A stretch of 64,000 nucleotides of DNA from Acidobacteriota bacterium (GCA_040005235.1 JBDTZG010000028.1:6940-70939), one strand, 5' to 3'. Positions 48,191 through 59,955 are shown, counted from the first letter of the stretch. The notes: generated from the letters alone by a model not told the origin. Translations and numbers: made by a program.

Positions 48191-48427
48191 TAGGGGCCAC
48201 CAGGACCCCGCGGTGGGCTCTGAAACCTCTTTCCGCAGGGTCGGCGCGGGCGGCAGAGTCGGCACGGGTGTTGAGTACCCGGTCCGGGCACGAGGCGTAC
48301 CTCAGGGGCTGTCGGCGCAAAAATTTGCGAAATTTGCCGCCCAGGGGTCCCGCTGTCTCGCATTGACGCGCCGAAGCACCGTAACATTGCAGAGACCACA
48401 CAATTGATTCGACCGAGGAGACCCCCC

Positions 48428-49888
48428 GTGTCGCAAAATCCTGTGCCGCTGCTTGCCGTGGTGTTGCGGAATCTCCGCGAGCGAGCCGGCTGGACCCAAG
48501 TCCGGCTCGAACGCGAGGCTCGCCTCAGCAAGGGATCGCTCTGCCGGCTGGAGAAGGGCAGCCAGACGGTCGATCGTTTCCTGCTCAATCGGCTGGCGAA
48601 GGTGATGAGAATCGCCGAGGGTGACGTGGAACAGGCGCTCGCAGTGCTGGAGCAGCTCCCGGCGGAGACCGGCGCCGGTTCGTCCGCGGACCTGCCGGTT
48701 CGCGACCGGCAGACGATCGAAACCGTCAGCGCGCGCTTTTCCCGCATGGTTCGCGAGAAGGCCCAGAACCGAATCGGGGGGAAGGTCCGCGCCCGGCGCT
48801 GGCGTCTCGACCGCGCGGCGGCCGCCGTGGCGTGGCAGCGGCTGCGCAAAATGCCCTCCGAGGATCGCCGGCTGATCGTTAAAGCGGTTGAGGCCTTTCA
48901 CACCTGGGCGGTGGTGGAACGGCTTTGCGAGGAGAGCGTAAGGGCGGCGGCCAGCGATATGGAGGAGGCCCGTAGGCTGGCGCAGCTTGCCCGGCAGGCC
49001 TCGACGGCCGCGAGCGGTGCCGAGCGAAGATATAAGTCGCTCGAAAATTACGCGGCGGCCTTCGAAGCGAACGCCTGGTGCGCTGCCGGCGAATTTCGGA
49101 AAGCCGAGCAGATTTTTGCCGAGGTCGATGCGCTCCATGGAGAAGGGCTGGACATCGCGGCAGTACCGGTCGATTGGGCCAGGCCACTGATCTTTCGAGC
49201 GGTGCTTATGATTTATCGGGCGAACCTCGATCCGGCATTGGAATGGCTGAACGAGGCGCTTTCGCTCACTCGCTCGCCGACCGTCAAGACTTGGGCGTTA
49301 ATCTGGCGAGCCGCTGTGCTCAAGCGGAAGCTCCAATTTCCCGCGGCGCTTGAGGAGCTGGAAAAGGCTCGGCCGTACGCCGAGCTTGCAGGCGATGCCC
49401 GGCTTCGATGGGCCATCGCCTTCAATGAAGCGGGTTATTTATGCGAAGCCGGCCATTTGGCGGAGGCTGCCGCCCGCCTTCCAGCCCTGAAGCTGGCAGC
49501 GTTGGAGCTCGGAGGAGCTCTGGATCGCCTGCGGCTCCGCTGGTTGACCGCGAGAGTGGCTGCTGCTTCAGGCCTGTTCCAGGAAGCCGCGACGAACCTC
49601 TCCGAGGTTTGGAATGCCTTTGCCGACCGGAACCTCTGGCTCGACGCGGCGATCGCGGTTCTCGAGCTGGCCAGCATCAACCTGGAGATGGGTCTGTCTG
49701 CCCAGGTCAAGAAGCTCGCCACGGCATCTGCTCACGTCTTCGCGGCGCAGACCCTGCCCGACCACCTTCTCGCGGCGGTTCGACTATTCTGGCAGGCCGC
49801 CCTTCAGGAAGCGGCCACTTCACAAATGGCGCGACAGCTGGTTGGGGACCTTCGCCGCGCCATGGTGGCAAACGCCGAAGCCTCCTGA
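48428..49888 (+). CDS. long XRE-HTH regulator with helical-repeat (TPR-like) C-terminal domain (R1)
   Basis: HTH LRNLRERAGWTQVRLEREARLSKGSLCRLEKG. Family signature FHTWAVVERLCEESV. About 300 aa of helical repeats. GTG 48428 has RBS GAGGAG; the track start is TTG 48404. Confidence 0.75.
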   Translation: MSQNPVPLLAVVLRNLRERAGWTQVRLEREARLSKGSLCRLEKGSQTVDRFLLNRLAKVMRIAEGDVEQALAVLEQLPAETGAGSSADLPVRDRQTIETVSARFSRMVREKAQNRIGGKVRARRWRLDRAAAAVAWQRLRKMPSEDRRLIVKAVEAFHTWAVVERLCEESVRAAASDMEEARRLAQLARQASTAASGAERRYKSLENYAAAFEANAWCAAGEFRKAEQIFAEVDALHGEGLDIAAVPVDWARPLIFRAVLMIYRANLDPALEWLNEALSLTRSPTVKTWALIWRAAVLKRKLQFPAALEELEKARPYAELAGDARLRWAIAFNEAGYLCEAGHLAEAAARLPALKLAALELGGALDRLRLRWLTARVAAASGLFQEAATNLSEVWNAFADRNLWLDAAIAVLELASINLEMGLSAQVKKLATASAHVFAAQTLPDHLLAAVRLFWQAALQEAATSQMARQLVGDLRRAMVANAEAS

Positions 49889-49907: not shown

Positions 49908-50195
49908 CTAGGTCCCACACAGACCGTTCGGGTTGATCTCGCAGCCGACTTCGCCGAGAGGAGGCTTACTTCTCGGGCGACCGGAGTCGGAAGCACTGCG
50001 TCCGTCTGGGCTTGCGCCGCGGCGCCCGCTGGGCTCGATCTCGCAACCGCTCGGCGCCCACAGCGCGGAAAAGAATCTCCCGGCTTTGGCGAGCAGGTTC
50101 CCGAGATCCCACGGTGCGGCGGAGGCCTGGGTCGGGAAGGCGAGGACCACGACGAGAAGCAAGAGCGGCAGACGGCGGGGCGACGAAGCGGACAT
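49908..50195 (-). CDS. small secreted Cys-loop repeat peptide (pepA, 95 aa)
   Basis: Signal peptide MSASSPRRLPLLLLVVVLAFPTQASA, then FFSALW, module GCEIEPSGRRGAS and the terminal GCEINPNGLCGT. Paralogous to 58620-58952. Confidence 0.65.
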   Translation of the reverse strand: MSASSPRRLPLLLLVVVLAFPTQASAAPWDLGNLLAKAGRFFSALWAPSGCEIEPSGRRGASPDGRSASDSGRPRSKPPLGEVGCEINPNGLCGT

Positions 50196-50395: not shown

Positions 50396-51220
50396 ATGAA
50401 CGACGCCTTGGATCGCCGCGCGGCAGGCTTGGTGATGCAGTTGTTTCGCTTCATGGCCGGCCGCCACCAGCACGACCTGAGCGAACGGACCGGGATCGAC
50501 ATAAAGCGGATTTCGCGTTACGAGCAGGGAAAAGTTCTGCCTCTTCGGCCGACGCTCGAACGACTCGCTGCGGGCGTCGGCGTCTCCGCGACCCGGCTCG
50601 ATCAGCTTCTCGCGTTGATTCGCACCGTGTGCGCCGAGGGCGAGGCGGCGACCGCCCAAAAGGAGCACGCCACAGCAGACCCCGACGAGTCCGATTGGCC
50701 GGACGATCTCGCCGAGCTGGCGGCGGAGATCGCCGAAGACCTACAGCCCGAGATTTACCAAGCCCTGAAGGAATTGAACGCCGAGCTGAACGCGCCGCCT
50801 CCGCCACTCGCCCCGGAAGCGGCGCGCGCCCAGGCTCGGGAGCTATGGGGAAGGTTCGAACCCTTGCCGGATCGCGTTCGCCGCCTGGTGATCGAACATG
50901 GCAAGGAGTACCAAACCTGGGCCTTTTGCGAACGGCTCTGCGAAGCAAGCCTCGACGCCGGATCGCGCGCGCCGGAGGACGGTCAGGCCTTGGCCGACCT
51001 GGCGCTCTCGGTCGCCGAGGCCGCCCAAGGGTCCGACGTGCTGCGCCAGCGCCTGACCGCCTTCGCCCTCGCCTGCGCCGCCCACGCGGATGTCCTCGCC
51101 GGGGACTCGGAAGAGGCCGCCGAGAAGCTGGGCCGGGCCAAGGCGCTCTGGACGGCCGGGGACGGCACCGACGATCTCGACCTCGGCCAGATCGCCGATC
51201 TGGTGCCCGCCGACTCGTAA
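50396..51220 (+). CDS. short XRE-HTH regulator paralog (R2)
   Basis: RBS GGGAGG lies before ATG 50396. HTH HQHDLSERTGIDIKRISRYEQG. Signature YQTWAFCERLCEASL. It lacks the long C-terminal repeat domain. Confidence 0.7.
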   Translation: MNDALDRRAAGLVMQLFRFMAGRHQHDLSERTGIDIKRISRYEQGKVLPLRPTLERLAAGVGVSATRLDQLLALIRTVCAEGEAATAQKEHATADPDESDWPDDLAELAAEIAEDLQPEIYQALKELNAELNAPPPPLAPEAARAQARELWGRFEPLPDRVRRLVIEHGKEYQTWAFCERLCEASLDAGSRAPEDGQALADLALSVAEAAQGSDVLRQRLTAFALACAAHADVLAGDSEEAAEKLGRAKALWTAGDGTDDLDLGQIADLVPADS

Positions 51221-51229
51221 GGAGTCCCC

Positions 51230-51631
51230 TCAGTTCGGCGCCCGCCGACTTGCGTCCGGCGGAAGCTCCGGCGGCGGCGGGCCGAGACGGCGCTCCAGGT
51301 CGGCGATCTTCTGTTCGAGATCTTCCGCCAGGATTTCGAGAGCCTGACAGAGCCGGTCCTCTTCCTCGGTCACCGTCGAGAGCCGCCGGGTCGCGGCGAG
51401 CCCGGCGAACGCCTGCTTTGTATGCCAGAGGTCGTCGATGCCGGCGCGCGTTCCCGCCTTGAGCCACGGTTCTCCGAACCCCGAGCCGTCTTCCAGCTCC
51501 AGCGCTTCCTCGGCGATCTTTTCGCAGGCATCCTGGACGCGTTGGCGCAAACCCGGCCGGGTGAAATGGACCAGGACCGACTCGCGGAACGGCGCCATCT
51601 CTCTCCAGCGGCGCTTGATCGGGTTGGTCAT
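51230..51631 (-). CDS. hypothetical cytoplasmic protein (S1)
   Basis: 133 aa, with a 4-nt overlap with the upstream S2 gene. No recognisable motif. Confidence 0.5.
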   Translation of the reverse strand: MTNPIKRRWREMAPFRESVLVHFTRPGLRQRVQDACEKIAEEALELEDGSGFGEPWLKAGTRAGIDDLWHTKQAFAGLAATRRLSTVTEEEDRLCQALEILAEDLEQKIADLERRLGPPPPELPPDASRRAPN

Positions 51632-52062
51632 CCTGGGGATGCCCGTCGCTCAGTCCGCACGGCGGCCCGGTGCCGGCCCAGGCGTCTCTCCTGCACCAGA
51701 CCCAGGAATGCGTCCCGATTCGCGGCCCCATGGGTCATCAGCGCCGCGAAGACCCGAAGGTTCAGACGGGCACCTTCCGGGGGCGGTGTACCTTCCAAGA
51801 GGGCGAGCAGTCGGGCGGCCAGCTCCGGCAAGATGCCCCCTCGCCCCTGGCGCAACAATACGGTTCCCAGCTCGATGTAGGCGTCCGCCGCTGCCATCAC
51901 CTCGCCCGATGCGCGCCAGGTTCCCGCGGCGCGGCCGAACAGTCGCGCCGCCTCTTCGAGGTTCCCATCGTCCCGCTCGCGCTCGGCCCGGTCGAAGATC
52001 TCTCCGGCGGCCCGCCGCAACTCGCCGGGTGCGAGGGGAGAGGCCGGACTTACAGAGGCCAT
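51628..52062 (-). CDS. hypothetical helical protein (S2), resembles the C-terminal module of R1/R3
   Basis: 144 aa. ...DDGNLEEAARLFGRAAG...AADAYIELGTVLLRQG...LAARLLALL... parallels the R1 and R3 C-termini and paralog S3. Confidence 0.55.
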   Translation of the reverse strand: MASVSPASPLAPGELRRAAGEIFDRAERERDDGNLEEAARLFGRAAGTWRASGEVMAAADAYIELGTVLLRQGRGGILPELAARLLALLEGTPPPEGARLNLRVFAALMTHGAANRDAFLGLVQERRLGRHRAAVRTERRASPG

Positions 52063-52499
52063 TCCATTCCTTTTCTGTGCTTCCGGACGTCCGCGAGCAA
52101 CTCGCCTAGTAACGGCGAGCTCGGCGGGGTGATCTCGAGCAAGAGCAAAAGGTTGGAAAAAAGCTCGATTTCCGGCGGCGCCACGGCGAGCGTCGCCGGC
52201 TTGGCGGCGAGCCAGTCCGGCAGGTCGACACGTTCAAGGCGATAGACCGCGGCCAGCGAGAGCGCCGCTAGCCCTTCGAGCCAGGGTTGCTCCGCTTTGC
52301 CGAAGGCATGGACGGCGAGAATAAAACTCTCTTCTGCCTGGGACAGGTTGCCCGCCGCCGCGGCGCGCTCGGCAAAATCCATCGAGCGCCAAGCCAACCG
52401 GAAAAAAGCCGGATGCGCCGGTTCCTTAGCCGGCGCATCCGCGGGCCCTGCGAGCGCGAGAGGGGGTGCGGGTCGCCCGCAGGGGAAAAAGGAGTCCAT
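52050..52499 (-). CDS. hypothetical helical protein (S3), paralog of S2
   Basis: 149 aa. ...AAGNLSQAEESFILAVHAF...LAALSLAAVYRLE... has the same layout as S2. 13-nt overlap with S2. Confidence 0.5.
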   Translation of the reverse strand: MDSFFPCGRPAPPLALAGPADAPAKEPAHPAFFRLAWRSMDFAERAAAAGNLSQAEESFILAVHAFGKAEQPWLEGLAALSLAAVYRLERVDLPDWLAAKPATLAVAPPEIELFSNLLLLLEITPPSSPLLGELLADVRKHRKGMEWPL

Positions 52500-52694
52500 G
52501 CGTGCGAGGGTAGGTCCAGGGATTCAGCTTTCGCGCTAGCCTGCCGCTCGTGGATGGCGTAGTTATCCATTTCGATAACATTTCTTGGGATGCCGGGGAA
52601 CTTTCCCAGCTCGTCATGCCGAGCGAGAGCTCTGCACACTCCAGCGGAGGCGGGGGGGAGTTCCGGCACTACATTCAATATTGCAGGAACCACC

Positions 52695-53810
52695 CTAGGG
52701 CTGCAGGCCGCCGTTCCACGAAGTGTCCTTGAGCAGATCGGCCCAATTCACGTCGGCGCTCAGCACATTGAATTCGTCGCTGCCGTCCGAGAAGACGTTG
52801 AGGTGTGCCGCCCGCCGAAAGACCTCCTCGCCTTGAATTTCGAAGCCGGGCCGTAGCGGCGGCAAGATGTAGAGGCCCATCCACGGACTACCGGTTGGGT
52901 TACAGCCCGTCTGGCCGGAAGCGGTGCAGAAGGGGAGCGCCGTGATTTCGCCCGTCGTCAAGCGTCCCTGGGTATCGGTGTGCAGGCGCAGCAGGAAGGG
53001 GATTTCCAGGTCACTGTAGACACACACTCCGTCGTCATCGCAGGAAAGGGCAGAGTCATAGGCGTCAATCCGGTAAGTCAGCGGCTCCTCCGCCCGGTAG
53101 AGAGCGGTCTTGTAGGAAATAAAGGCGCAGAACGGATTGGGAATGGGTTCCGCCAGGCAGCCTGTCGGCCGAACCGTCCGCGCGAGGATCGAGTAGACCT
53201 TGAGGTCAAAGTCGGTCACTTCGGTATGGCAGGGAGAGAGTAGGTCGTCGACGGTCAAACCGCGTCCCGCGGTGTCCGCGTGGTCCGCCTGCGCGTCCTG
53301 GAGAGTGGTGATCCGAATCGAATTCTTCGGCTGAAAAGGGTCTGGCGGCTCCCGGGACAGGATGAGATCCACGAGCATCGAGAACCGGGTCGTCCCCTCG
53401 AGATTCGAAGACGCATCCCGCCGAACCAAGGTGGCCTGGGGCCGGCGATCCCTTCGGGGGTTCAAGAAGTCCTCGTCCTCGCGAAGGATCAGGTCGAACG
53501 CCAGCTGTTTCTCCTGTCGCTCGCGGTCGCCTTGAACCGTGGTGTGTCGCAACTGGCTGGTGCTGGCCAATCCTCTGTAGGTGCCGCCATTGGCGCTCGA
53601 CCGCCAGAGGAGGAGGCTCGACTCCCCGTAGGAAACCCCCATGCGGTGCAGCAACCTCCCCATTTGCCGCTCTTCGCAGGCGACCTGCTCGGACGTGAGG
53701 GGGCGGCCGAAGGGCTGGGCCACAGCATTGCGTACCGCACATGCGCCGAAGACCAGGGCCACGGCCCAAGCCGGCACCCGCCACCCTACGGCTGCAGGCC
53801 GCCGTTCCAC
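52695..53810 (-). CDS. secreted Cys-containing protein of unknown function (P1), tandem paralog of P2
   Basis: Collinear with P2 over the full length (QPFG.PLTSEQVACEERQMGRLLHRMGVSYGE ... NWADLLKDTSWNGGLQP). GTG start at 53810; an alternative is GTG 53777. Confidence 0.7.
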   Translation of the reverse strand: MERRPAAVGWRVPAWAVALVFGACAVRNAVAQPFGRPLTSEQVACEERQMGRLLHRMGVSYGESSLLLWRSSANGGTYRGLASTSQLRHTTVQGDRERQEKQLAFDLILREDEDFLNPRRDRRPQATLVRRDASSNLEGTTRFSMLVDLILSREPPDPFQPKNSIRITTLQDAQADHADTAGRGLTVDDLLSPCHTEVTDFDLKVYSILARTVRPTGCLAEPIPNPFCAFISYKTALYRAEEPLTYRIDAYDSALSCDDDGVCVYSDLEIPFLLRLHTDTQGRLTTGEITALPFCTASGQTGCNPTGSPWMGLYILPPLRPGFEIQGEEVFRRAAHLNVFSDGSDEFNVLSADVNWADLLKDTSWNGGLQP

Positions 53811-54889
53811 GAGGTGTCCTTGAGCAGGTCCGCCCAGTTGACGTCGGCACGTAGAATGTTCAAGTCAGGAAAGGCAACCGAGAAAAGGTTCAGGTGGGCC
53901 GCACGCCGAAAGACTTCCTCTCCCTGAACCTCGATGCCGGGTCTCAGGGGAGGTAAGACGTAAAGGCCCATCCAAGGACTGTCCTCCGGGCTGCATCCGG
54001 TTTGGCCCGACGCTGTGCAAAACGGCAGCAGCGAGACCTCCCCGGATGCCAACCGGCCTTGGGCGTCGGCTTGGATGCGAAACAGCAGTGAATTCTGCTC
54101 GTCGCTGTAAACGCACACGCCGTCTTCGTCGCAGGACAACGAGGAGAGATATACGTCGGCCCGATAGGTCAGCGGCTCCTCCGCGCGGTAGAACGCGGTT
54201 TTAAAGGAAATGAATCCGCAGACCGGGTTGGGAATGGGTTCCGCCAGGCAGCCCGTCGGCCGCACCGTCCGGGCGAGGATCGAGTAGACCTTTAGGTCGA
54301 AATCGGTCACCTCAGTATGGCAGGTATTCAAAAGGTCGTCGACGGTCAGACCGCGTCCGGCGGTGTCCGCGTGGTCCTCCGGCGCTTCCTGGAGGGTGGT
54401 GATCCGGATCGAATTCTTTGGGTGGAAAGGGTCGGGCGGCTCCGGGGACAGGATGAGATCTACGAGCATCGAGAACCGGGTCGTTCCCATCGGGTCGAGG
54501 TTCGACGCCGCGTCCCGCCGGACCAGCGTCGCCTGCGGGCGGCGTTCCCGCCGGGGGTTCAAGAAGTCTTCATCGGCGCGGAGAATCAGGTCAAACGCCA
54601 GCTGTTTCTCATCGCGCATCCGGATGTCTACGGTCGTCGTAGGATCGAAATAAAGGTGGTCCGTACTGGCCAAGCCTCTGTAGCTGCCGCCGTTGGCCGC
54701 CGATCGCCAAAGGTAGAGGCCAGCCTCGCCATATGAGACCCCCATACGATGAAGCAATCGCCCCATCTGGCGCTCCTCGCAGGCGACCTGCTCGGACGTG
54801 AGGGGGCTGCCGAAGGGCTGGGCCGCCATAATTCCCGGGGCGATGATTACCAGGAAGAGAATCGCGAACAACGCGCTTTTGGGTTTCAT
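53786..54889 (-). CDS. secreted Cys-containing protein of unknown function (P2)
   Basis: ATG 54889 with signal peptide MKPKSALFAILFLVIIAPGIMAAQ. The track ORF's N-terminal extension is rejected. Confidence 0.75.
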   Translation of the reverse strand: MKPKSALFAILFLVIIAPGIMAAQPFGSPLTSEQVACEERQMGRLLHRMGVSYGEAGLYLWRSAANGGSYRGLASTDHLYFDPTTTVDIRMRDEKQLAFDLILRADEDFLNPRRERRPQATLVRRDAASNLDPMGTTRFSMLVDLILSPEPPDPFHPKNSIRITTLQEAPEDHADTAGRGLTVDDLLNTCHTEVTDFDLKVYSILARTVRPTGCLAEPIPNPVCGFISFKTAFYRAEEPLTYRADVYLSSLSCDEDGVCVYSDEQNSLLFRIQADAQGRLASGEVSLLPFCTASGQTGCSPEDSPWMGLYVLPPLRPGIEVQGEEVFRRAAHLNLFSVAFPDLNILRADVNWADLLKDTSWNGGLQP

Positions 54890-55098
54890 AGCTTCCCCGC
54901 TGAACCTGTCTTCTGTTGGACCTGGAGAACGATGTCGAAGGAATAGAACGGCGAAACGATCTCGCAACTTCCCCCGTTGCAGGTTTTGTGGATGGGATCC
55001 CAATTGATGGTCTGGACTGCCGTCATGGTTCCCGTTGCCGGCGTGACCCACTGGACCTCGAACCGATCGGCCGTCGGTCCGAGGTTCAAGAGCGTCAA
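54886..55098 (-). CDS. small protein X, translationally coupled to P2; the true N-terminus is probably further upstream
   Basis: ATGA overlap with the P2 start. The frame stays open and protein-like up to about 55320, but the first ATG/GTG/TTG in frame is TTG 55098. Confidence 0.5.
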   Translation of the reverse strand: MTLLNLGPTADRFEVQWVTPATGTMTAVQTINWDPIHKTCNGGSCEIVSPFYSFDIVLQVQQKTGSAGKL

Positions 55099-55321
55099 GC
55101 GGTCTTGGTATTTCTGCGCCAGCCAGATCCGCGCGTCGAAAGCGTTGCGCGGGAGAAATATCGGTTTGGCGCTCGGAGACGTGGACTCTTTGGGGCATCC
55201 GTTCGCAGTGAACTCCGCCTCGGGCGCGTTCGATGCCGTGCTGGCCGCGCAGCGGATCGTGCTGTGGTGTAGATAGAGCAGGAAAAGCCGGTTCGGCTCC
55301 GGTCTCCGACCTGGATCGGCA

Positions 55322-56821
55322 TCAATCGGTATCCGTCGGAGATTGAGGGCCTTGATGTAGGTCGGGTCTCGCAGCGCTATTGGGCAGCCCTCCAGACCAA
55401 GCTGACCGGGACGAGGTGAGGCGCCCGAGCGGCAGCGCGTTGACGAATTTCTTGAGTACGCCGAGTTGGCGCCGAATGGTCGCGGGGGTGTTCGGGTCGC
55501 CTCCGGAGAGATATCCGAAATGGTCGTAGGTGGCGCCCTGGTCGAACAGAAACTCCCAGGCTTCGGCGCGCGCCGGTTCGGCGAGCTTTTCTGTCAGGGC
55601 GCCGTTGGTATGGGCGCGGGTGCCGCTCTTGCCTCCGACATCTGGGTTGCCGATGAACTGACCGGCGCCTTTGGTCGTAAACGGCTGTACCGCCACCAAA
55701 TGCCCGCCGGCGGCCAAGCGCGGGTATTTCGCTTCCTGAAAGGTGACCTGGGCAATCATGTCGCGCTGCCACTTGGCGACCTCGAGGGGATCGACGGTCT
55801 GGGCCTCCGGCTCGTTGGCGATCTCCCAATAGACGGTGTCGAAGCACCAGAGTTCTTGGACCGTCCACTCGATCACTTTGGCCTGGGCCACGCGCATGCG
55901 CTCGTTCGTCAGGGCCTCCTGGGTGCCTCGCGTGTCGTGGGTCACGAAGTACTCGGGCTTTGAGAACTTCACCGTCTCGAACGTCCCGTCCGACTTCGGC
56001 ATCATCCCCTTGCCGCCCCAGGGACCCTGGGAGAAGAAATCTCCCTCGAACGGCGCGAAGATGGTCACTTCGACGATCATCTTCCTCGGGTCCTGGGCGT
56101 AGGCCACGACATCGCGCAAGCGTTGGAAATACCGCGTGTTCGGCTTGTCCAGGCGCCAGAACGGGTAGGCGTTGGCCGGGAAGTTGGCGCAGTCGGGGCT
56201 CGCCACGGCGCTCGGGCAATAGAGGAACGGGACGTTGTTCGGGTTTTTCTCTCCGGCCAGGGCGATCCAGAGGCGGAGCTTGTTCAGGCCCGCTTCGAAG
56301 GCGGCTTGGATCGTCGTGGGGTAGTTGGTCCAGTTGCATTTGTCGGAGGAGAGTTCGAGGTGGCAGCCGTTGTCAGCCGAGACGCCGACGAGGGTCTGGA
56401 TCGTGTTGCGGTACGAAAAGTAGCGCGAGGCGAAAGGCAGGGCGGCGGTCGTTTTGCCGATCTTGATCGGGGTGATCGTCTGCGTGATGTTGCCGCAACC
56501 GGTGGCGGAAATCGTGGGATCGGCCGGAACGTCGGGGTCGGTGCCCAGCAGCTCGGGCGGATAGAGATCCTCCGAGTCGAGCGAATTCGGGTCGCCGTCG
56601 TAGGGGAGCAAGTCGTCGCCGAGGGTCCACAGCTCGGCGGGCAAGCTGGGGTCGGTGGTCGAGCCACCGTCGCCGAAGACGGAAGAGAGGGGTGGCTCTT
56701 CTTCGGGTCCGGGTGGGGGTTGGGCGGGAAGGGGGGCACCGACCGAGAGGAACGAAAGAAAGATGAAGGCGAGGGTCGCACGGTGGCAGAGGGATAAGAG
56801 TAGCGAGCGAGTTCGGTCCAC
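55322..56821 (-). CDS. secreted glycoside hydrolase clan GH-A (GH5-like) candidate
   Basis: Signal peptide, a Pro/Asp-rich linker and a TIM-barrel-like domain with YWEIANEPE (the NEP acid/base motif). GTG start at 56821 with RBS AAAGGA. Confidence 0.5.
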   Translation of the reverse strand: MDRTRSLLLSLCHRATLAFIFLSFLSVGAPLPAQPPPGPEEEPPLSSVFGDGGSTTDPSLPAELWTLGDDLLPYDGDPNSLDSEDLYPPELLGTDPDVPADPTISATGCGNITQTITPIKIGKTTAALPFASRYFSYRNTIQTLVGVSADNGCHLELSSDKCNWTNYPTTIQAAFEAGLNKLRLWIALAGEKNPNNVPFLYCPSAVASPDCANFPANAYPFWRLDKPNTRYFQRLRDVVAYAQDPRKMIVEVTIFAPFEGDFFSQGPWGGKGMMPKSDGTFETVKFSKPEYFVTHDTRGTQEALTNERMRVAQAKVIEWTVQELWCFDTVYWEIANEPEAQTVDPLEVAKWQRDMIAQVTFQEAKYPRLAAGGHLVAVQPFTTKGAGQFIGNPDVGGKSGTRAHTNGALTEKLAEPARAEAWEFLFDQGATYDHFGYLSGGDPNTPATIRRQLGVLKKFVNALPLGRLTSSRSAWSGGLPNSAARPDLHQGPQSPTDTD

Positions 56822-57041
56822 GGCGCTGTCCTTTCAAGGTTTCCGCGTTACGCGGAAGACTGCTGGAACGGTAGCAGCGCCGACGATATTTTCGCAAACA
56901 ATTTCATCACATTCGGTATGGCTTTCAGATTTCTGCGGCTCTGGGGTGACCTGGGAACTGAGACGGATGGGAGCGGGCGTTTTCTGCCCGCGGGGCGATG
57001 ACGATGAACGGTGAGGACCCTAAGAGCCAAATGCTCCCAAT

Positions 57042-57060
57042 GAGGAAACCAGGTTTCCTC
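57042..57060. promoter_or_regulatory. perfect 19-bp palindrome in the divergent GH5-like/R3 intergenic region
   Basis: GAGGAAACC-A-GGTTTCCTC, about 100 bp upstream of the R3 start. Confidence 0.4.
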
Positions 57061-57158
57061 TCTGTGCGGCGGGCAGGCGTCCCAATTTATTTGTTGTCAC
57101 GAAAAGTGCCTCAGCGGCAACAAGATGTATTAAAGACACCAGACCCCGGAGAACCGCG

Positions 57159-58613
57159 ATGCCCAAGGTGGACCTGCCGCCGACGAATGCGGCGCTATTG
57201 ATTTTGCGCATCCTGTGTCGCCTGACACAGGATGAGTTCGGCGAGCTGACCGGCATGAAGAGCCGGATCGTCGAGATCGAGAATGGCCGGTATGTCCTTA
57301 AGCGCGCCGAGCTCGAAGATCTGGTGGAGGAGCTCAAGGTGTCGGCCTACGCGGTGCCGGTCGCCCTCGGCCTATCGGAGCTGGTGTTGCCGTCGACCGA
57401 CAAGACCCCCCACCCCTGGGAGGCGACGCCCGACGCGCGGTTTCAGGCCGAGCGCGCGACCCTCGAATCGTCCGCCATCGTGCGCCGTCTGTTCCTCGCC
57501 GAAGCGCGCGCGGAGCGCTACGCGGCGGACCGCGAGGAGGCCGAGCGCCTCTGGAAGCTGCTTGCGCCGCTCAATCGCGACCGGCGGCGGGTGATGGCCC
57601 GGATCGTCGATTTCTCGACCTGGGCGGTGGTCGAGCGCCTCTGCATCGAGAGCCTCAGGGGAGCGCCTCGGGATCCCGGGGCCGCCCGCTCGCTCGCCGA
57701 GCTGGCCGTTGAGGTGGCCCAGAGGATTCCGCCGCTGCCCAGGTTCAGCGATCGGGTGGAAGGGTACGCCCAGGCCCACTTGGGCAACGCCTTTCGAGTC
57801 GGGAACGACTTTGACGAGGCGGTTCGCGCTTTCGCGCTCGTCGCGAAACTTTGGATCGAGTTCCTGCCGGGCGAGGCCTGCCCGTTTGACGTGACGCTGA
57901 TCCCCGACCTAGAAGCTTCTCTGCGCCGCGATCAGCGTCAATTCTCCTTAGCGTTCGCTGGGCACGACCGGGCTCTTTCCTTCGCTGTCGAGGATGCGAT
58001 CCGCGGGCGCATCCTCCTCAATAAGGCAGTGACATTCGAGCATTCCGGCGATCCAGTTGGTGCGGTTGCAACTCTCAGCGCTGCTCAGCCTCTTATCGAC
58101 ACGAGCAACGAAACCCGGCTGGGTTGTGTCGCGCGTTTCAACTTGGCGGTCAACCTCCTCCATCTTGGAAACGCCTTAGATGCCGAGCCGCTGATCGCCG
58201 AGGTGCGGGCGCTTGCGATCGAACAGCGAAACGAGCTTGACCTGATCCGGGTCCTTTGGCTCTCCGGCCGCCTTGCCGCCGCGCAAGGAGATCGGGCGAA
58301 GGCGATGGTCTCGATCGATGACGCGGCCTGTCGCTTCGCCGAACAGGGCCTCGGATATGACGCCGCACTGGCGGTGCTCGACCTCGCGGGGCTGCTCTTG
58401 GAAGAAGGCAACCCGAGAGAGGCAGCCCGGAGGGTGGCCGAGGTGCAACCCACTTTCCACGTGCGAAACATTCACCGGGAGGAACTGGCGAGCCTGGTTC
58501 TGTTCCTCCAAGCCGTCGAAACCGAAGCGGCGACCGCCGCGCTGGCGCGCGCGGCGGCCGAGGCCTGGAGGTTGTTCGGCACGCCCGTTCCTTTCGGAAG
58601 TCTGGCCGACTGA
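57159..58613 (+). CDS. long XRE-HTH regulator with helical-repeat (TPR-like) C-terminal domain (R3)
   Basis: HTH LTQDEFGELTGMKSRIVEIENG. Signature FSTWAVVERLCIESL. The C-terminal repeats are collinear with R1. Confidence 0.75.
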   Translation: MPKVDLPPTNAALLILRILCRLTQDEFGELTGMKSRIVEIENGRYVLKRAELEDLVEELKVSAYAVPVALGLSELVLPSTDKTPHPWEATPDARFQAERATLESSAIVRRLFLAEARAERYAADREEAERLWKLLAPLNRDRRRVMARIVDFSTWAVVERLCIESLRGAPRDPGAARSLAELAVEVAQRIPPLPRFSDRVEGYAQAHLGNAFRVGNDFDEAVRAFALVAKLWIEFLPGEACPFDVTLIPDLEASLRRDQRQFSLAFAGHDRALSFAVEDAIRGRILLNKAVTFEHSGDPVGAVATLSAAQPLIDTSNETRLGCVARFNLAVNLLHLGNALDAEPLIAEVRALAIEQRNELDLIRVLWLSGRLAAAQGDRAKAMVSIDDAACRFAEQGLGYDAALAVLDLAGLLLEEGNPREAARRVAEVQPTFHVRNIHREELASLVLFLQAVETEAATAALARAAAEAWRLFGTPVPFGSLAD

Positions 58614-58619
58614 AATGAA

Positions 58620-58952
58620 CTACTGGCCGCAGCGACCCTCTGGGTCGACGACGCAACCCGCGTCGCGAAGGATCGGCGCCGGGGCACTCGACGAACCGCA
58701 GCGGCCGTAGGGATCGAGGCTGCAGCCCACGTCGCTGAGGATCGGCACCGGGGCGCTCGACGGGCCGCGGCCGCCGTGGGGGTCGAGGCTGCAGCCCTCC
58801 TCCTCCCAGAGGGCCGAAAGAAACGACCAGCCGCGGGCGAACAGGTCGGGGAGGGTGCGATCGAGCGGCAAGGCGCCGGCCGGGAAGGCACTGAGGAGGA
58901 AGAGGGCTAGCAGAGCGACGGCGAGGGCGAGGTGACGCTTCGGTTGGGGCAT
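58620..58952 (-). CDS. small secreted Cys-loop repeat peptide (pepB, 110 aa)
   Basis: Signal peptide MPQPKRHLALAVALLALFLLSAFPAGA, then FLSALW and three modules: GCSLDPHGGRGPSS, GCSLDPYGRCGSS and the terminal GCVVDPEGRCGQ. The modules are encoded by 69-bp tandem DNA repeats. Confidence 0.7.
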   Translation of the reverse strand: MPQPKRHLALAVALLALFLLSAFPAGALPLDRTLPDLFARGWSFLSALWEEEGCSLDPHGGRGPSSAPVPILSDVGCSLDPYGRCGSSSAPAPILRDAGCVVDPEGRCGQ

Positions 58953-59067: not shown

Positions 59068-59955
59068 ATGGAACGGAAATCCGGCAGAACGCGAGACGTT
59101 CGCTCAGGACTCAGTGCGGCACCCACCCCTGGCGCCGCCGCGAAGGGGGGAAGGGCCGCGGCCAAAGCGCGGGACGCCGAGTACTCGGCTCTGTTGGTCC
59201 GGTATATGGATGCGACGGTCGGCCCGCGGCACGACCAGTTCGCGGAGTTGGTCGAGATCAGCGCGGCGCGGGCGAGCCTCTACCGCTACGGCTACAAGGT
59301 GCCCCGGCCCGAGACGAAGGCCCGTTTCTCCGGCCGGGTCGGGCTGCCGATCGAATGGTTCGAGGCGATGACCGCCGACTCGTTGTTTCTCCGCGGCAAA
59401 AGCTCAAAGCCGGCGGGAAGTACTCCCGCAGCCCTGGCGGAAGACCTCTCCCGCCGGCTCGCGGGCCAGCTCGCCCCGCGGTTCGCGGCGTTGCGCAGCG
59501 TAGCCCCCGCCGCCCCTCCTCCTCCTCCTCCTTCGCTCGAACGGGCGGCGGCCGATCGAGCCGAGGCGGACCGGCATTGGACCGAAATCGAGCCGCTCAC
59601 CGCCGCCGAGCGCGCCCTCGCGGTGCCGGAGATCCCGAGGTTCCACTCCTGGGCGCTGGTCGAGCTGCTCTGCGGAAAAAGTGTAGAGGCCGCGCCCGTG
59701 TCGCCGGCCGAAGCGCTCGCCCTCGCCAAGCTGGCCATACGACTGGCCCGCCGGGTCCAAGCAAGCCAAGGATTTCGCGACCGCCTGATGGGCTACGCCC
59801 TCCTCCACTCGGCCGCCGCACTCAAGAGCCTGAACGACCTGCCGCGAGCCCGGGAAGCCCGCGCGCGCGGGCTACGGCTTTTCGCGGCGGGGCGGAAGGA
59901 GGATCCGGGGTTGCTGGATGAAGCGATCGCCGAGGGACTCGCGTCGTCGTCGTAG
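59068..59955 (+). CDS. short XRE-HTH regulator paralog (R4)
   Basis: RBS GGAGGG lies before ATG 59068. HTH-like HDQFAELVEISAARASLYRYG. Signature FHSWALVELLCGKSV. Confidence 0.65.
   Translation: MERKSGRTRDVRSGLSAAPTPGAAAKGGRAAAKARDAEYSALLVRYMDATVGPRHDQFAELVEISAARASLYRYGYKVPRPETKARFSGRVGLPIEWFEAMTADSLFLRGKSSKPAGSTPAALAEDLSRRLAGQLAPRFAALRSVAPAAPPPPPPSLERAAADRAEADRHWTEIEPLTAAERALAVPEIPRFHSWALVELLCGKSVEAAPVSPAEALALAKLAIRLARRVQASQGFRDRLMGYALLHSAAALKSLNDLPRAREARARGLRLFAAGRKEDPGLLDEAIAEGLASSS

What the first reader, a model, noticed from the sequence alone, without database searches (positions are those of the whole stretch)
51628..52499. S2 and S3 look like free-standing copies of the C-terminal module that the short regulator R2 lacks
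S2 (...GNLEEAARLFGRAAGTWRASGEVMAAADAYIELGTVLLRQGRGGILPELAARLLALL...) and S3 are paralogs. By eye they align with the last ~110 aa of R1 (...LFQEAATNLSEVWNAFADRNLWLDAAIAVLELASINLEMGLSAQVKKLATASAHVF...) and of R3. They sit immediately downstream of and convergent with R2, which is truncated before this module. This may be a domain-fission arrangement in which sensor and adaptor modules are supplied in trans. The similarity is modest, so this is tentative.
Basis: inference. Interest (0 to 1): 0.55.

Follow-up and report, generated by a model that had tools for sequence, protein, structure and literature searches.

The report
Free-standing copies of a regulator's tail
Two small genes really do encode stand-alone copies of the last six helices of neighbouring helix-turn-helix/TPR regulators, but they belong to a conserved multi-copy cassette built around a full-length regulator rather than supplying the missing end of the truncated one.

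Summary
S2 (51628-52062, minus) and S3 (52050-52499, minus) are real genes under purifying selection and are distant paralogs (hhalign 96.8%, E 3e-10). Their profile matches the C-terminal module of the R regulators best (92.9-94.4%, E 4e-7 to 9e-8; reversed-profile controls E 0.1-0.5). The AlphaFold models of S2 and R3 both have pLDDT 90. Their six helices and the odd H4-H5 loop map one-to-one without indels.

The domain-fission reading tied to R2 is not supported.
- In 15 of 17 distinct related loci from 5 Thermoanaerobaculia/Holophagales MAGs, S2-like genes are transcribed divergently from a full-length R.
- In six of those loci the second R is also full length.
- Short R forms end at a fixed point about 100 residues before the S2-like module begins.
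- Only the window's lineage has R2 convergent with the S genes.
- In the window the ancestral R3-S intergenic region has been split by three inserted genes.

S2 is translationally coupled to S1, an unrelated conserved small protein.

My best reading, which is inferred, is that S3-S2-S1 is the R3-linked output or feedback operon. S2/S3 would act through the same protein-interaction surface as the regulator's cap, following SinI/SinR-like logic. The family is uncharacterised. Interest is moderate.

The parts
51628..52062 (-). S2: 144-aa free-standing six-helix TPR-like protein, homologous to the C-terminal module of the R regulators.
52050..52499 (-). S3: 149-aa diverged paralog of S2 and first gene of the operon. 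It overlaps the S2 start by 13 nt.
   Evidence: hhalign of the S2 superfamily against S3 gives 96.8%, E 3e-10. Few homologues were found: P0042 at 70% identity, plus S3-like ORFs in L014-L016. dN/dS is 0.43. NCBI annotates only the last 110 aa.
51230..51631 (-). S1: 133-aa conserved small protein of unknown family. Its start overlaps the S2 stop by 4 nt. It is unrelated to R, S2 and S3.
   Evidence: It follows S2 in 13 full cassettes, plus contig-end fragments L005, L007 and L009 and a fragmentary second cassette in L016, usually with a 4-nt overlap. hhalign against R/S2/S3 gives probability 0.1%. No hit in Pfam, NCBIfam, PADLOC, PHROGs or PDB.
52500..52694 (-). Upstream region of the S operon. 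The last ~90 bp are collinear with the S2-proximal half of the L001 and L010 R-S2 intergenic regions. It contains the inverted repeat GTTATC-N6-GATAAC at 52562-52579.
   Evidence: Alignment. The pattern GTTRYC-N(4-24)-GRYAAC occurs only twice in the 64 kb window, here and upstream of R3. The pattern was derived from these same regions.
52410..52441 (-). A 12-bp GC-rich hairpin followed by a T-run, lying inside the 5' part of the S3 ORF (codons ~20-33, 'ADAPAKEPAHPAFF').
   Evidence: Terminator scan. The hairpin is conserved in S3-like genes of L014, L015 and L016: 13 predicted pairs, one of them compensatory.
57159..58613 (+). R3: full-length 484-aa XRE-HTH plus TPR-superhelix regulator. By synteny it is the conserved divergent partner of the S operon.
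   Evidence: Pfam HTH_19 and TPR_MalT. More than 254 homologues of ~490 aa. AF2 pLDDT 90.4. Foldseek hits LGN and Rap proteins (RapJ TM 0.62). Synteny.
58224..58613 (+). C-terminal module of R3 (residues ~356-484). It has two 40-residue TPR-like hairpins, a loop, a short helix and a final helix. This is the segment homologous to S2/S3.
   Evidence: hhalign registers. Helix map.
49496..49888 (+).
   Evidence: hhalign places S2 32-107 on R1 389-464 and S3 43-142 on R1 383-487.
57010..57158 (+). R3-proximal half of the ancestral R3-S intergenic region. It contains the perfect palindrome GAGGAAACC-A-GGTTTCCTC (57042-57060) and GTTGTC-N17-GGCAAC (57093-57121).
   Evidence: The palindrome has 0 matches in 100 shuffles.
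50396..51220 (+). R2: conserved short R form of 274 aa (HTH, linker and first TPR-like pair). Its 3' end faces S1 across a 9-nt gap.
   Evidence: Alignment. R-family HMM positions 8-256 only. dN/dS 0.29 against L001. Sequence.
52695..56821 (-). Three genes for secreted proteins (P371, P470, P499). They lie between the two halves of the ancestral R3-S intergenic region and are absent at this position in L001.

Best explanation
Shown:
- S2, and its diverged upstream paralog S3, is a stand-alone six-helix TPR-like protein. It is homologous to the C-terminal module (two TPR-like hairpins plus a two-helix cap) of the XRE-HTH/TPR 'R' regulators.
- It is not a fragment of R2.
- S3-S2-S1 is a translationally coupled operon belonging to a conserved, multi-copy cassette of Thermoanaerobaculia/Holophagales: [second R, short or long] <- [small Cys-repeat secreted-peptide gene on the opposite strand] [full-length R] <- | -> [S3 optional] S2 S1.
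- In this window the full-length partner is R3. It is separated from the S operon by three inserted genes, and the S operon keeps its own ancestral upstream region.

Inferred:
- R3 controls the divergent S operon through related inverted repeats upstream of R3 and of S3.
- S2/S3 act through the same protein-protein surface as the regulator's own C-terminal cap. Either they heteromerise with the R cap, or they compete with it for a shared partner, for which S1 is the obvious candidate.
- They would thereby modulate the regulator's oligomeric state or activity. This is the logic of SinI, a free-standing copy of SinR's C-terminal multimerisation domain.
For: Homology: hhalign 68-94% with the C-terminal module as the top match, reversed controls negative, and reciprocal HMM hits. 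Six helices and the H4-H5 loop are collinear in two pLDDT-90 models.

Real genes: 40 free-standing homologues and dN/dS 0.2-0.4.

Cassette: S2-like genes are divergent from a full-length R in 15 of 17 distinct loci, and S1 follows S2 with a 4-nt overlap in most.

Link to R3: L001's intergenic region maps to window 57010-57158 and 52500-52590. GTTRYC...GRYAAC repeats occur only at these two places in the window.

A route of origin can be seen directly: L013 carries a 108-codon duplicate of only residues 371-478 of its neighbouring R, at 93.5% identity.

Precedents: the SinR-SinI heterodimer forms through residues conserved between the two proteins (PMC3163267). AimR, an HTH plus 8-TPR regulator, dimerises through its C-terminal capping helix (PMC6340889).

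Weak hint: S2 divergence tracks the partner's C-terminal module (rho 0.32) more than the rest of R (rho 0.01).
Against: S2 is far more conserved between cassettes (mean 65% identity) than the partner R (38% overall, 42% for its C-terminal module). That fits a common conserved partner better than paralog-specific pairing with each R.

It is unknown whether the R C-terminal module is an oligomerisation surface.

The S2 profile also hits generic multi-repeat TPR proteins in a search of 1.84 billion representative proteins, and R proteins do not reach E 1e-3 there. The R-specific signal is therefore modest.

The operator motif was derived from the very regions in which it was then counted.

Many R genes have no S2 nearby, including R1 in this window.
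Confidence: 0.4

Rival explanations
1. Output-only model. S2-S1 (plus or minus S3) is simply the effector or adaptor pair that the R cassette switches on. S2 is a small TPR scaffold whose partner is S1 (or, in distant relatives, a fused C-terminal domain), and it does not feed back on R. Its similarity to the R cap reflects an old partial duplication only.
For: S2 and S1 are tightly coupled translationally. S2 is very highly conserved while the R proteins diverge. Distant S2-like proteins carry a fused extra domain in place of S1. S2-like genes occur without any R in L021 and L022.
Against: It does not explain why the module retained is precisely the regulator's own cap. It also does not explain why S2-like genes sit next to a full-length R in 15 of 17 loci. 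There is a weak preferential co-divergence with the R C-terminal module.
Confidence: 0.3
2. R2 is a fission product, and S2/S3 supply its missing C-terminal sensor or adaptor module in trans, restoring a full-length-like regulator.
For: R2 lacks the module, and S1-S2-S3 lie next to it. The homology of S2/S3 to the module is real.
Against: Only one lineage has R2 convergent with the S genes. In six loci S2-S1 sits beside two full-length R genes, and in two loci beside none. Short R forms end at R3 ~258 while S2 starts at ~356, so five helices are unaccounted for. S3 maps to the same module, not the gap. The genes are convergent, not co-oriented. The upstream region of the S operon is syntenic with the R3 side.
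Confidence: 0.06
3. Generic TPR resemblance. S2/S3 are unrelated small TPR proteins, and the match to the R C-terminus is no more than any TPR pair would give.
Against: The C-terminal module beats every other R repeat by a factor of 500 in E-value (3.6e-7 against 1.7e-4). The match extends through the non-TPR cap, with identical helix lengths and an identical 7-8-residue loop and no indels. Among 1717 neighbouring ORFs the reciprocal hits are exclusive. The genes are physically linked. A recent module-only duplicate exists in L013.
Confidence: 0.08
4. Decaying remnants. S2 and S3 are non-functional leftovers of partial R duplications.
For: A partial duplicate of an R 3' end, without an obvious start codon, exists in L013.
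Against: There are 40 homologues at 59-82% identity, with conserved starts and conserved lengths. dN/dS is 0.2-0.4. Codon-position GC is coding-like. S2 is translationally coupled to S1.
Confidence: 0.02

Closest known systems
SinI/SinR (and SlrA/SlrR) of Bacillus subtilis
   Same: An XRE-type HTH regulator is paired with a small linked protein that is a free-standing homologue of the regulator's own C-terminal protein-interaction domain. SinI heterodimerises with SinR through residues conserved between the two and abolishes its DNA binding (PMC3163267).
   Different: The fold is unrelated: a two-helix 'helical hook' of ~40 aa against a six-helix TPR-like module of ~125 aa. There was no Pfam SinI hit. 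Here the small gene is transcribed divergently and coupled to a second protein, S1. The phylum is different. No interaction has been shown here.
RRNPP-type HTH-TPR receptors (NprR, PlcR, AimR; Rap proteins lacking the HTH)
   Different: There is no significant sequence match. To my knowledge RRNPP systems are described in Firmicutes and their phages. The adjacent peptide genes here encode 82-144-aa multi-repeat Cys-loop precursors on the opposite strand. I know of no RRNPP system with a free-standing copy of the receptor's C-terminal module.
TrlR/TraS of Agrobacterium (a truncated TraR paralog acting as anti-activator); plant 'microProteins'
   Same: A free-standing copy of only the protein-interaction part of a transcription factor acts as a dominant modulator by forming non-functional heteromers. 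This comparison is from my own knowledge and was not checked in the library.
   Different: In those cases the copy is the N-terminal ligand or dimerisation domain of a LuxR-type protein, or an HD-ZIP or bHLH dimerisation motif. Fold, lineage and gene context are all unrelated.
Generic small TPR adaptor proteins (e.g. FLU-TPR, SNAP/Sec17, type III secretion chaperones)
   Different: No sequence family membership. The repeats are 40 residues long. S2 has a distinctive short-helix plus long-helix cap that it shares with the R regulators.

Membership tests
Homologue of the R-regulator C-terminal module | Significant profile-profile similarity located at the C-terminal module rather than at other repeats | tested here: met
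   hhalign 92.9-94.4% (E 3.6e-7 to 9e-8) at R3 369-454. The next-best repeat gives 37-49% (E 2-4e-4). Reversed controls give E 0.13-0.46. The official tool gives 68.3%.
Homologue of the R-regulator C-terminal module | Same order, number and length of secondary-structure elements | tested here: met
   Six helices and the H4-H5 loop coincide at a constant offset of +344 in two models of pLDDT 90. No 3-D superposition was possible with these tools.
Homologue of the R-regulator C-terminal module | Reciprocal detection by sequence HMMs | tested here: met
   In 1717 ORFs the R C-terminal HMM finds S2 ORFs (E 4e-5 to 1e-4), and the S2 HMM finds R-long C-termini (E 2e-5 to 1e-4), with no unrelated ORF below E 0.1. 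R proteins did not reach E 1e-3 against 1.84 billion representatives.
TPR superfamily | Match to a curated TPR model above its threshold | tested here: inconclusive
   For S2, TPR_12 gives E 1.8e-4 and 22.1 bits against a cutoff of 30.1. S3 has no hit. Six of 40 homologues carry precomputed TPR_16 or TPR_12 hits.
TPR superfamily | Antiparallel helical-hairpin repeat fold | tested here: met
Gene fission (split R gene: R2 plus S2/S3) | The fragments together cover the full-length protein without a gap | tested here: not met
   R2 and all other short R forms end at R3 ~245-258. S2 and S3 both map to R3 ~356-484. Helices 262-355 are missing from both.
Gene fission (split R gene: R2 plus S2/S3) | The fragments co-occur and are adjacent (typically co-oriented) across genomes, replacing the full-length gene | tested here: not met
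   S2-like genes are next to a full-length R in 15 of 17 loci. In six loci there is no short R. R2 convergent with S1 occurs only in the window and in L001/L002/L006.
SinI-type antagonist of an XRE regulator | A small protein homologous to the regulator's own C-terminal domain and genetically linked to it | tested here: met
   Homology as above. Adjacent and divergent gene pair in 15 of 17 loci.
SinI-type antagonist of an XRE regulator | Sequence membership of the SinI/SinR helical-hook family | tested here: not met
   No Pfam SinI or other hit. The fold is a six-helix TPR-like repeat.
SinI-type antagonist of an XRE regulator | The shared domain is the regulator's oligomerisation surface, and the small protein forms a heteromer that changes DNA binding | not testable with these tools
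   No multimer prediction or experiment was available. There is only precedent from AimR and SinR.
RRNPP peptide-receptor family (for the R proteins) | HTH plus TPR architecture with Rap/NprR-like fold, and an adjacent gene for a small secreted peptide | tested here: inconclusive
   The architecture and the Foldseek hits to Rap (TM ~0.6, E 1e-5) are met. An adjacent secreted Cys-repeat ORF is present in every locus. There is no sequence-level membership, and peptide binding is untested.

The most novel reading that the evidence does not exclude
The whole island may be a peptide-signalling cassette of RRNPP-like design in a diderm phylum (Acidobacteriota). Its parts would be a Rap/NprR-like HTH-TPR receptor, a multi-core precursor of disulfide-looped 'C-x-[ILF]-[DN]-P-x-G-x-C' peptides, a conserved truncated receptor paralog, and a divergent output operon. 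The first products of that operon (S3/S2) would be 'micro-receptor' copies of the receptor's own cap. They would feed back on the receptor by capping or heteromerising with it, with S1 as the shared partner. This would be a SinI-like antagonist invented independently on a TPR scaffold.
Probability: 0.2. Interest if true: 0.75.

Novelty: new variant of a known kind. Interest (0 to 1): 0.5.

Why it matters
If S2/S3 act on the R regulators through the shared cap module, this would be an independent, TPR-based instance of the SinI/SinR principle, in which a regulator is controlled by a free-standing copy of its own interaction domain. It would sit in a poorly studied phylum and inside a cassette present in 2-5 copies per genome. 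It also gives a concrete handle on a large uncharacterised family of ~490-aa XRE-TPR regulators (more than 254 clusters). Their pairing with Cys-repeat secreted peptides suggests peptide signalling outside the Firmicutes. For annotation, it shows that S2, S1 and the short R forms are conserved genes rather than debris. It also shows that the adjacency of R2 and the S genes here is an accident of one lineage.

Tried and rejected
- Pairwise BLASTP of S2/S3 against each other and against R1 was not significant on its own, so profiles were needed.
- S1 was tested as another missing piece of R. hhalign probability against R, S2 and S3 was 0.1%, so this was rejected. The one weak hit was its C-terminal 'helix plus PPPP' motif against the R2 linker (E 0.026).
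- The extra C-terminal domain of distant S2-like proteins was tested against S1. They are unrelated.
- S1, S2 and S3 had no hit in NCBIfam, PADLOC or PHROGs. Profile searches of PDB sequences gave nothing meaningful. Toxin-antitoxin, defence-system and phage readings were therefore dropped.
- The AFDB Foldseek library was unavailable, so I could not ask whether S2 retrieves the C-termini of R-like models.
- The S2 profile against 1.84 billion representatives returned small S2-like proteins and generic TPR proteins, but no ~490-aa R protein at E <= 1e-3.
- The mirror-tree test gave only weak correlations.
- The sigma-70 promoter scan found nothing in 50900-57300. The inverted-repeat tool at its default length missed the short operator-like repeats, which I found by pattern instead.
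- S3 plus S2 as two consecutive halves of the region missing from R2 was rejected, because both map to the same module.

Full report
**What is at the coordinates**

The minus strand of 51230-52499 carries three overlapping ORFs:
- S3, 52050-52499, 149 aa.
- S2, 51628-52062, 144 aa. Its start overlaps the end of S3 by 13 nt.
- S1, 51230-51631, 133 aa. Its start overlaps the S2 stop by 4 nt.

All three show the high-GC1, low-GC2, high-GC3 pattern of real genes, unlike the Arg-rich shadow ORFs over them. dN/dS against orthologues is 0.2-0.4, like the neighbouring regulator genes.

The regulators are:
- R1, 48404-49888, 494 aa.
- R2, 50396-51220, 274 aa.
- R3, 57159-58613, 484 aa.
- A fourth short one, R4, ~59068-59955.

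All have XRE-type HTH domains, and the long ones have TPR-like repeats. The source is a Thermoanaerobaculia (Acidobacteriota) MAG (locus tags).

**Is the similarity real?**

Pairwise BLAST is not convincing on its own: S2-S3 E 0.013, S2/S3-R1 E 0.2-0.5. Profiles are convincing.

S2 has 40 homologues, all free-standing at 116-219 aa and very conserved. S3 has few.

| Comparison (hhalign) | Probability | E-value |
|---|---|---|
| S2 family vs 25 R proteins from related loci | 59.5% | 9e-5 |
| S2 family vs 95 R-family proteins (official tool) | 68.3% | 4.7e-5 |
| Diverse S2 superfamily profile (68 sequences) vs R family | 92.9% | 3.6e-7 |
| Merged S2+S3 profile vs R family | 94.4% | 9e-8 |

- The next-best R segment is the preceding repeat, at E ~2e-4.
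- S3 alone matches the same module more weakly (26-49%).
- S3 matches the S2 superfamily at 96.8% (E 3e-10, 119 columns).
- Column-reversed profiles, which keep composition and helical periodicity, score 13-18 against 53-57 for the real comparison.
- In 1717 ORFs from the window and 22 related loci, the R C-terminal HMM and the S2 HMM find each other and nothing else.

The AlphaFold models of S2 (pLDDT 90.0) and R3 (pLDDT 90.4) have the same six terminal helices. S2 12-31/35-52/55-71/75-90/98-110/116-141, shifted by +344, gives R3 359-375/379-395/399-415/419-435/444-454/460-472. This includes the unusual 7-8-residue loop before a short fifth helix.

**Where the genes belong**

Related loci show a conserved cassette. 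These are 18 genome loci from 5 MAGs (17 distinct, since L006 repeats L001), with 2-5 copies per MAG, plus metagenome contigs. The cassette is:

[second R] <- [small ORF on the opposite strand] [full-length R] <- | -> [S3-like, optional] S2 S1

- S2-like genes are transcribed divergently from a full-length R in 15 of 17 distinct loci.
- In L021 and L022 an S2-like gene stands alone next to smpB.
- The second R is short in about nine cassettes, but full length in six (L011-L015, L018).
- S1 follows S2 in the 13 full core-type cassettes, in contig-end fragments L005, L007 and L009, and in a fragmentary second cassette in L016. In most of these the overlap is 4 nt.

The closest relative (L001, R3 84% identical) has the order mraZ | R1 pep R2 > < S1 S2 | R3 pep R4. 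That is the window's order without S3 and without the three secreted-protein genes at 52695-56821.

L001's 275-bp R3like-S2 intergenic region aligns to two separate pieces of the window. One lies just upstream of R3 (57010-57158) and the other just upstream of S3 (52500-52590). The S operon therefore descends from a divergent partnership with R3. The 4.6-kb block was inserted here or lost there. The proximity to R2 is specific to this lineage.

**Why the fission model fails**

- Short R forms from at least nine loci all end at the same place, R3 residues 245-258, and are under purifying selection. They are a conserved isoform lacking 12 helices.
- S2 and S3 both correspond to the last six helices. 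Helices 262-355 are in neither protein.
- S2-S1 sits just as often beside two full-length regulators.
- The genes are convergent with R2, not co-oriented.

Each of the usual criteria for a split gene was tested and not met.

**What it probably does**

The regulators look like peptide receptors of RRNPP design. They have an HTH followed by a TPR superhelix that superposes on Rap proteins and LGN (Foldseek E 1e-5, TM ~0.6).

The S operon has its own conserved upstream region. It contains an inverted repeat (GTTATC-N6-GATAAC, 52562) related to one upstream of R3 (GTTGTC-N17-GGCAAC, 57093). These are the only two matches of that pattern in the 64 kb window. The pattern was derived from these regions, so this is suggestive only.

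I infer that R3 controls S3-S2-S1, and that S2/S3 use the surface they share with the regulator's cap. There are two precedents:
- SinI is a free-standing copy of SinR's C-terminal domain and inactivates SinR by heterodimerisation (PMC3163267).
- AimR, an HTH plus 8-TPR regulator, dimerises through its C-terminal capping helix (PMC6340889).

A recent duplicate of only residues 371-478 of an R gene (93.5% identical, L013) shows how such genes can arise.

There is evidence against a strictly cognate S2-R pairing. S2 is much more conserved between cassettes (65% mean identity) than the partner R (38%), and co-divergence is weak (rho 0.32 with the R C-terminal module, 0.01 with the rest of R). An output-only role for an S2-S1 complex is therefore a serious rival.

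**Comparison with known systems and verdict**

S2/S3 are members of the TPR fold class and homologues of the R cap. They are not members of the SinI family or of any curated family.

The arrangement works like SinI/SinR or TrlR/TraR in design, but on a different scaffold, coupled to a second small protein, and in a different phylum. None of this has been shown experimentally.

I rate it a new variant of a known kind, of moderate interest.

Noticed in passing
window 49908-50195 (-) and 58620-58952 (-); the same position in L001, L003, L008 and L010-L020: Between each pair of R genes, on the opposite strand, there is a small ORF of 82-144 aa. It has a signal peptide, a conserved 'W..FLSALW' segment, and 1-5 repeats of GC-x-[ILF]-[DN]-P-x-G-x-C separated by APAP-type linkers. 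It looks like a multi-core precursor of disulfide-looped peptides, placed next to Rap/NprR-like HTH-TPR receptors in an Acidobacteriota genome. In L003 the public gene call at this position is a shadow ORF on the wrong strand.
   Followed up: partly
window 52410-52441 (-): A terminator-like hairpin (12-bp GC-rich stem plus T-run) lies inside the 5' part of the S3 ORF. It is conserved in S3-like genes of L014, L015 and L016, with one compensatory pair, and encodes the conserved 'ADAPAxxPAHPxFF' motif. It may be an attenuator in the leader of the S operon. NCBI starts S3 after it, at M40.
   Followed up: partly
window 52695-56821 (-): This block holds three genes for secreted proteins. P371 and P470 are paralogs. 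P499 carries a 'WEIANEPE' motif that recalls glycoside hydrolase family 5; that reading is from memory and was not tested. The block interrupts the ancestral R3-S intergenic region and is absent at this position in the closest relative, L001.
   Followed up: partly
window 57042-57060 (+): The perfect 9-1-9 palindrome GAGGAAACC-A-GGTTTCCTC lies upstream of R3. It is conserved in L001 and nearly so in L010, and had 0 matches in 100 shuffles. It may be an operator.
   Followed up: partly
L013 609-932 (-): A 108-codon segment is 93.5% identical to residues 371-478 of the R gene 2.4 kb away (L013 3361-4806). It is a recent duplicate of only the C-terminal module, with no obvious start codon.
   Followed up: partly
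window 51230-51330 (S1 C-terminus) and 50750-50850 (R2 linker): The nearly invariant 'helix + LGPPPPELP' end of S1 resembles the 'helix + NAPPPPLAPEA' linker found in short R forms, where long R forms have one continuous helix. The S1 HMM hits R2 at E 0.026 in 1717 ORFs. It may be a shared docking motif or a compositional artefact.
   Followed up: no
proteins P0052, P0055, P0056, P0061, P0064, P0047: Distant S2-like proteins carry an extra ~90-aa C-terminal domain with the pattern W-x-L-x-x-D/E-G-x-W-F-V...RVVVKV. It is unrelated to S1. P0047 gives a weak Pterin_4a (PCD/DCoH) hit at E 0.006, and a Pterin_4a-like gene lies near the L003 cassette.
   Followed up: partly
L019 6929-7435 and L020 6848-7411: In other MAGs, orthologues of the R1-pep-R2 triplet have their own divergent S2-like gene without an S1. 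In the window, R1 faces mraZ instead, so this triplet appears to have lost its S2-like gene.
   Followed up: no
protein P0184: One R-family relative (604 aa) combines the TPR region with a GGDEF diguanylate cyclase domain. The TPR sensor module is therefore reused with other outputs.
   Followed up: no
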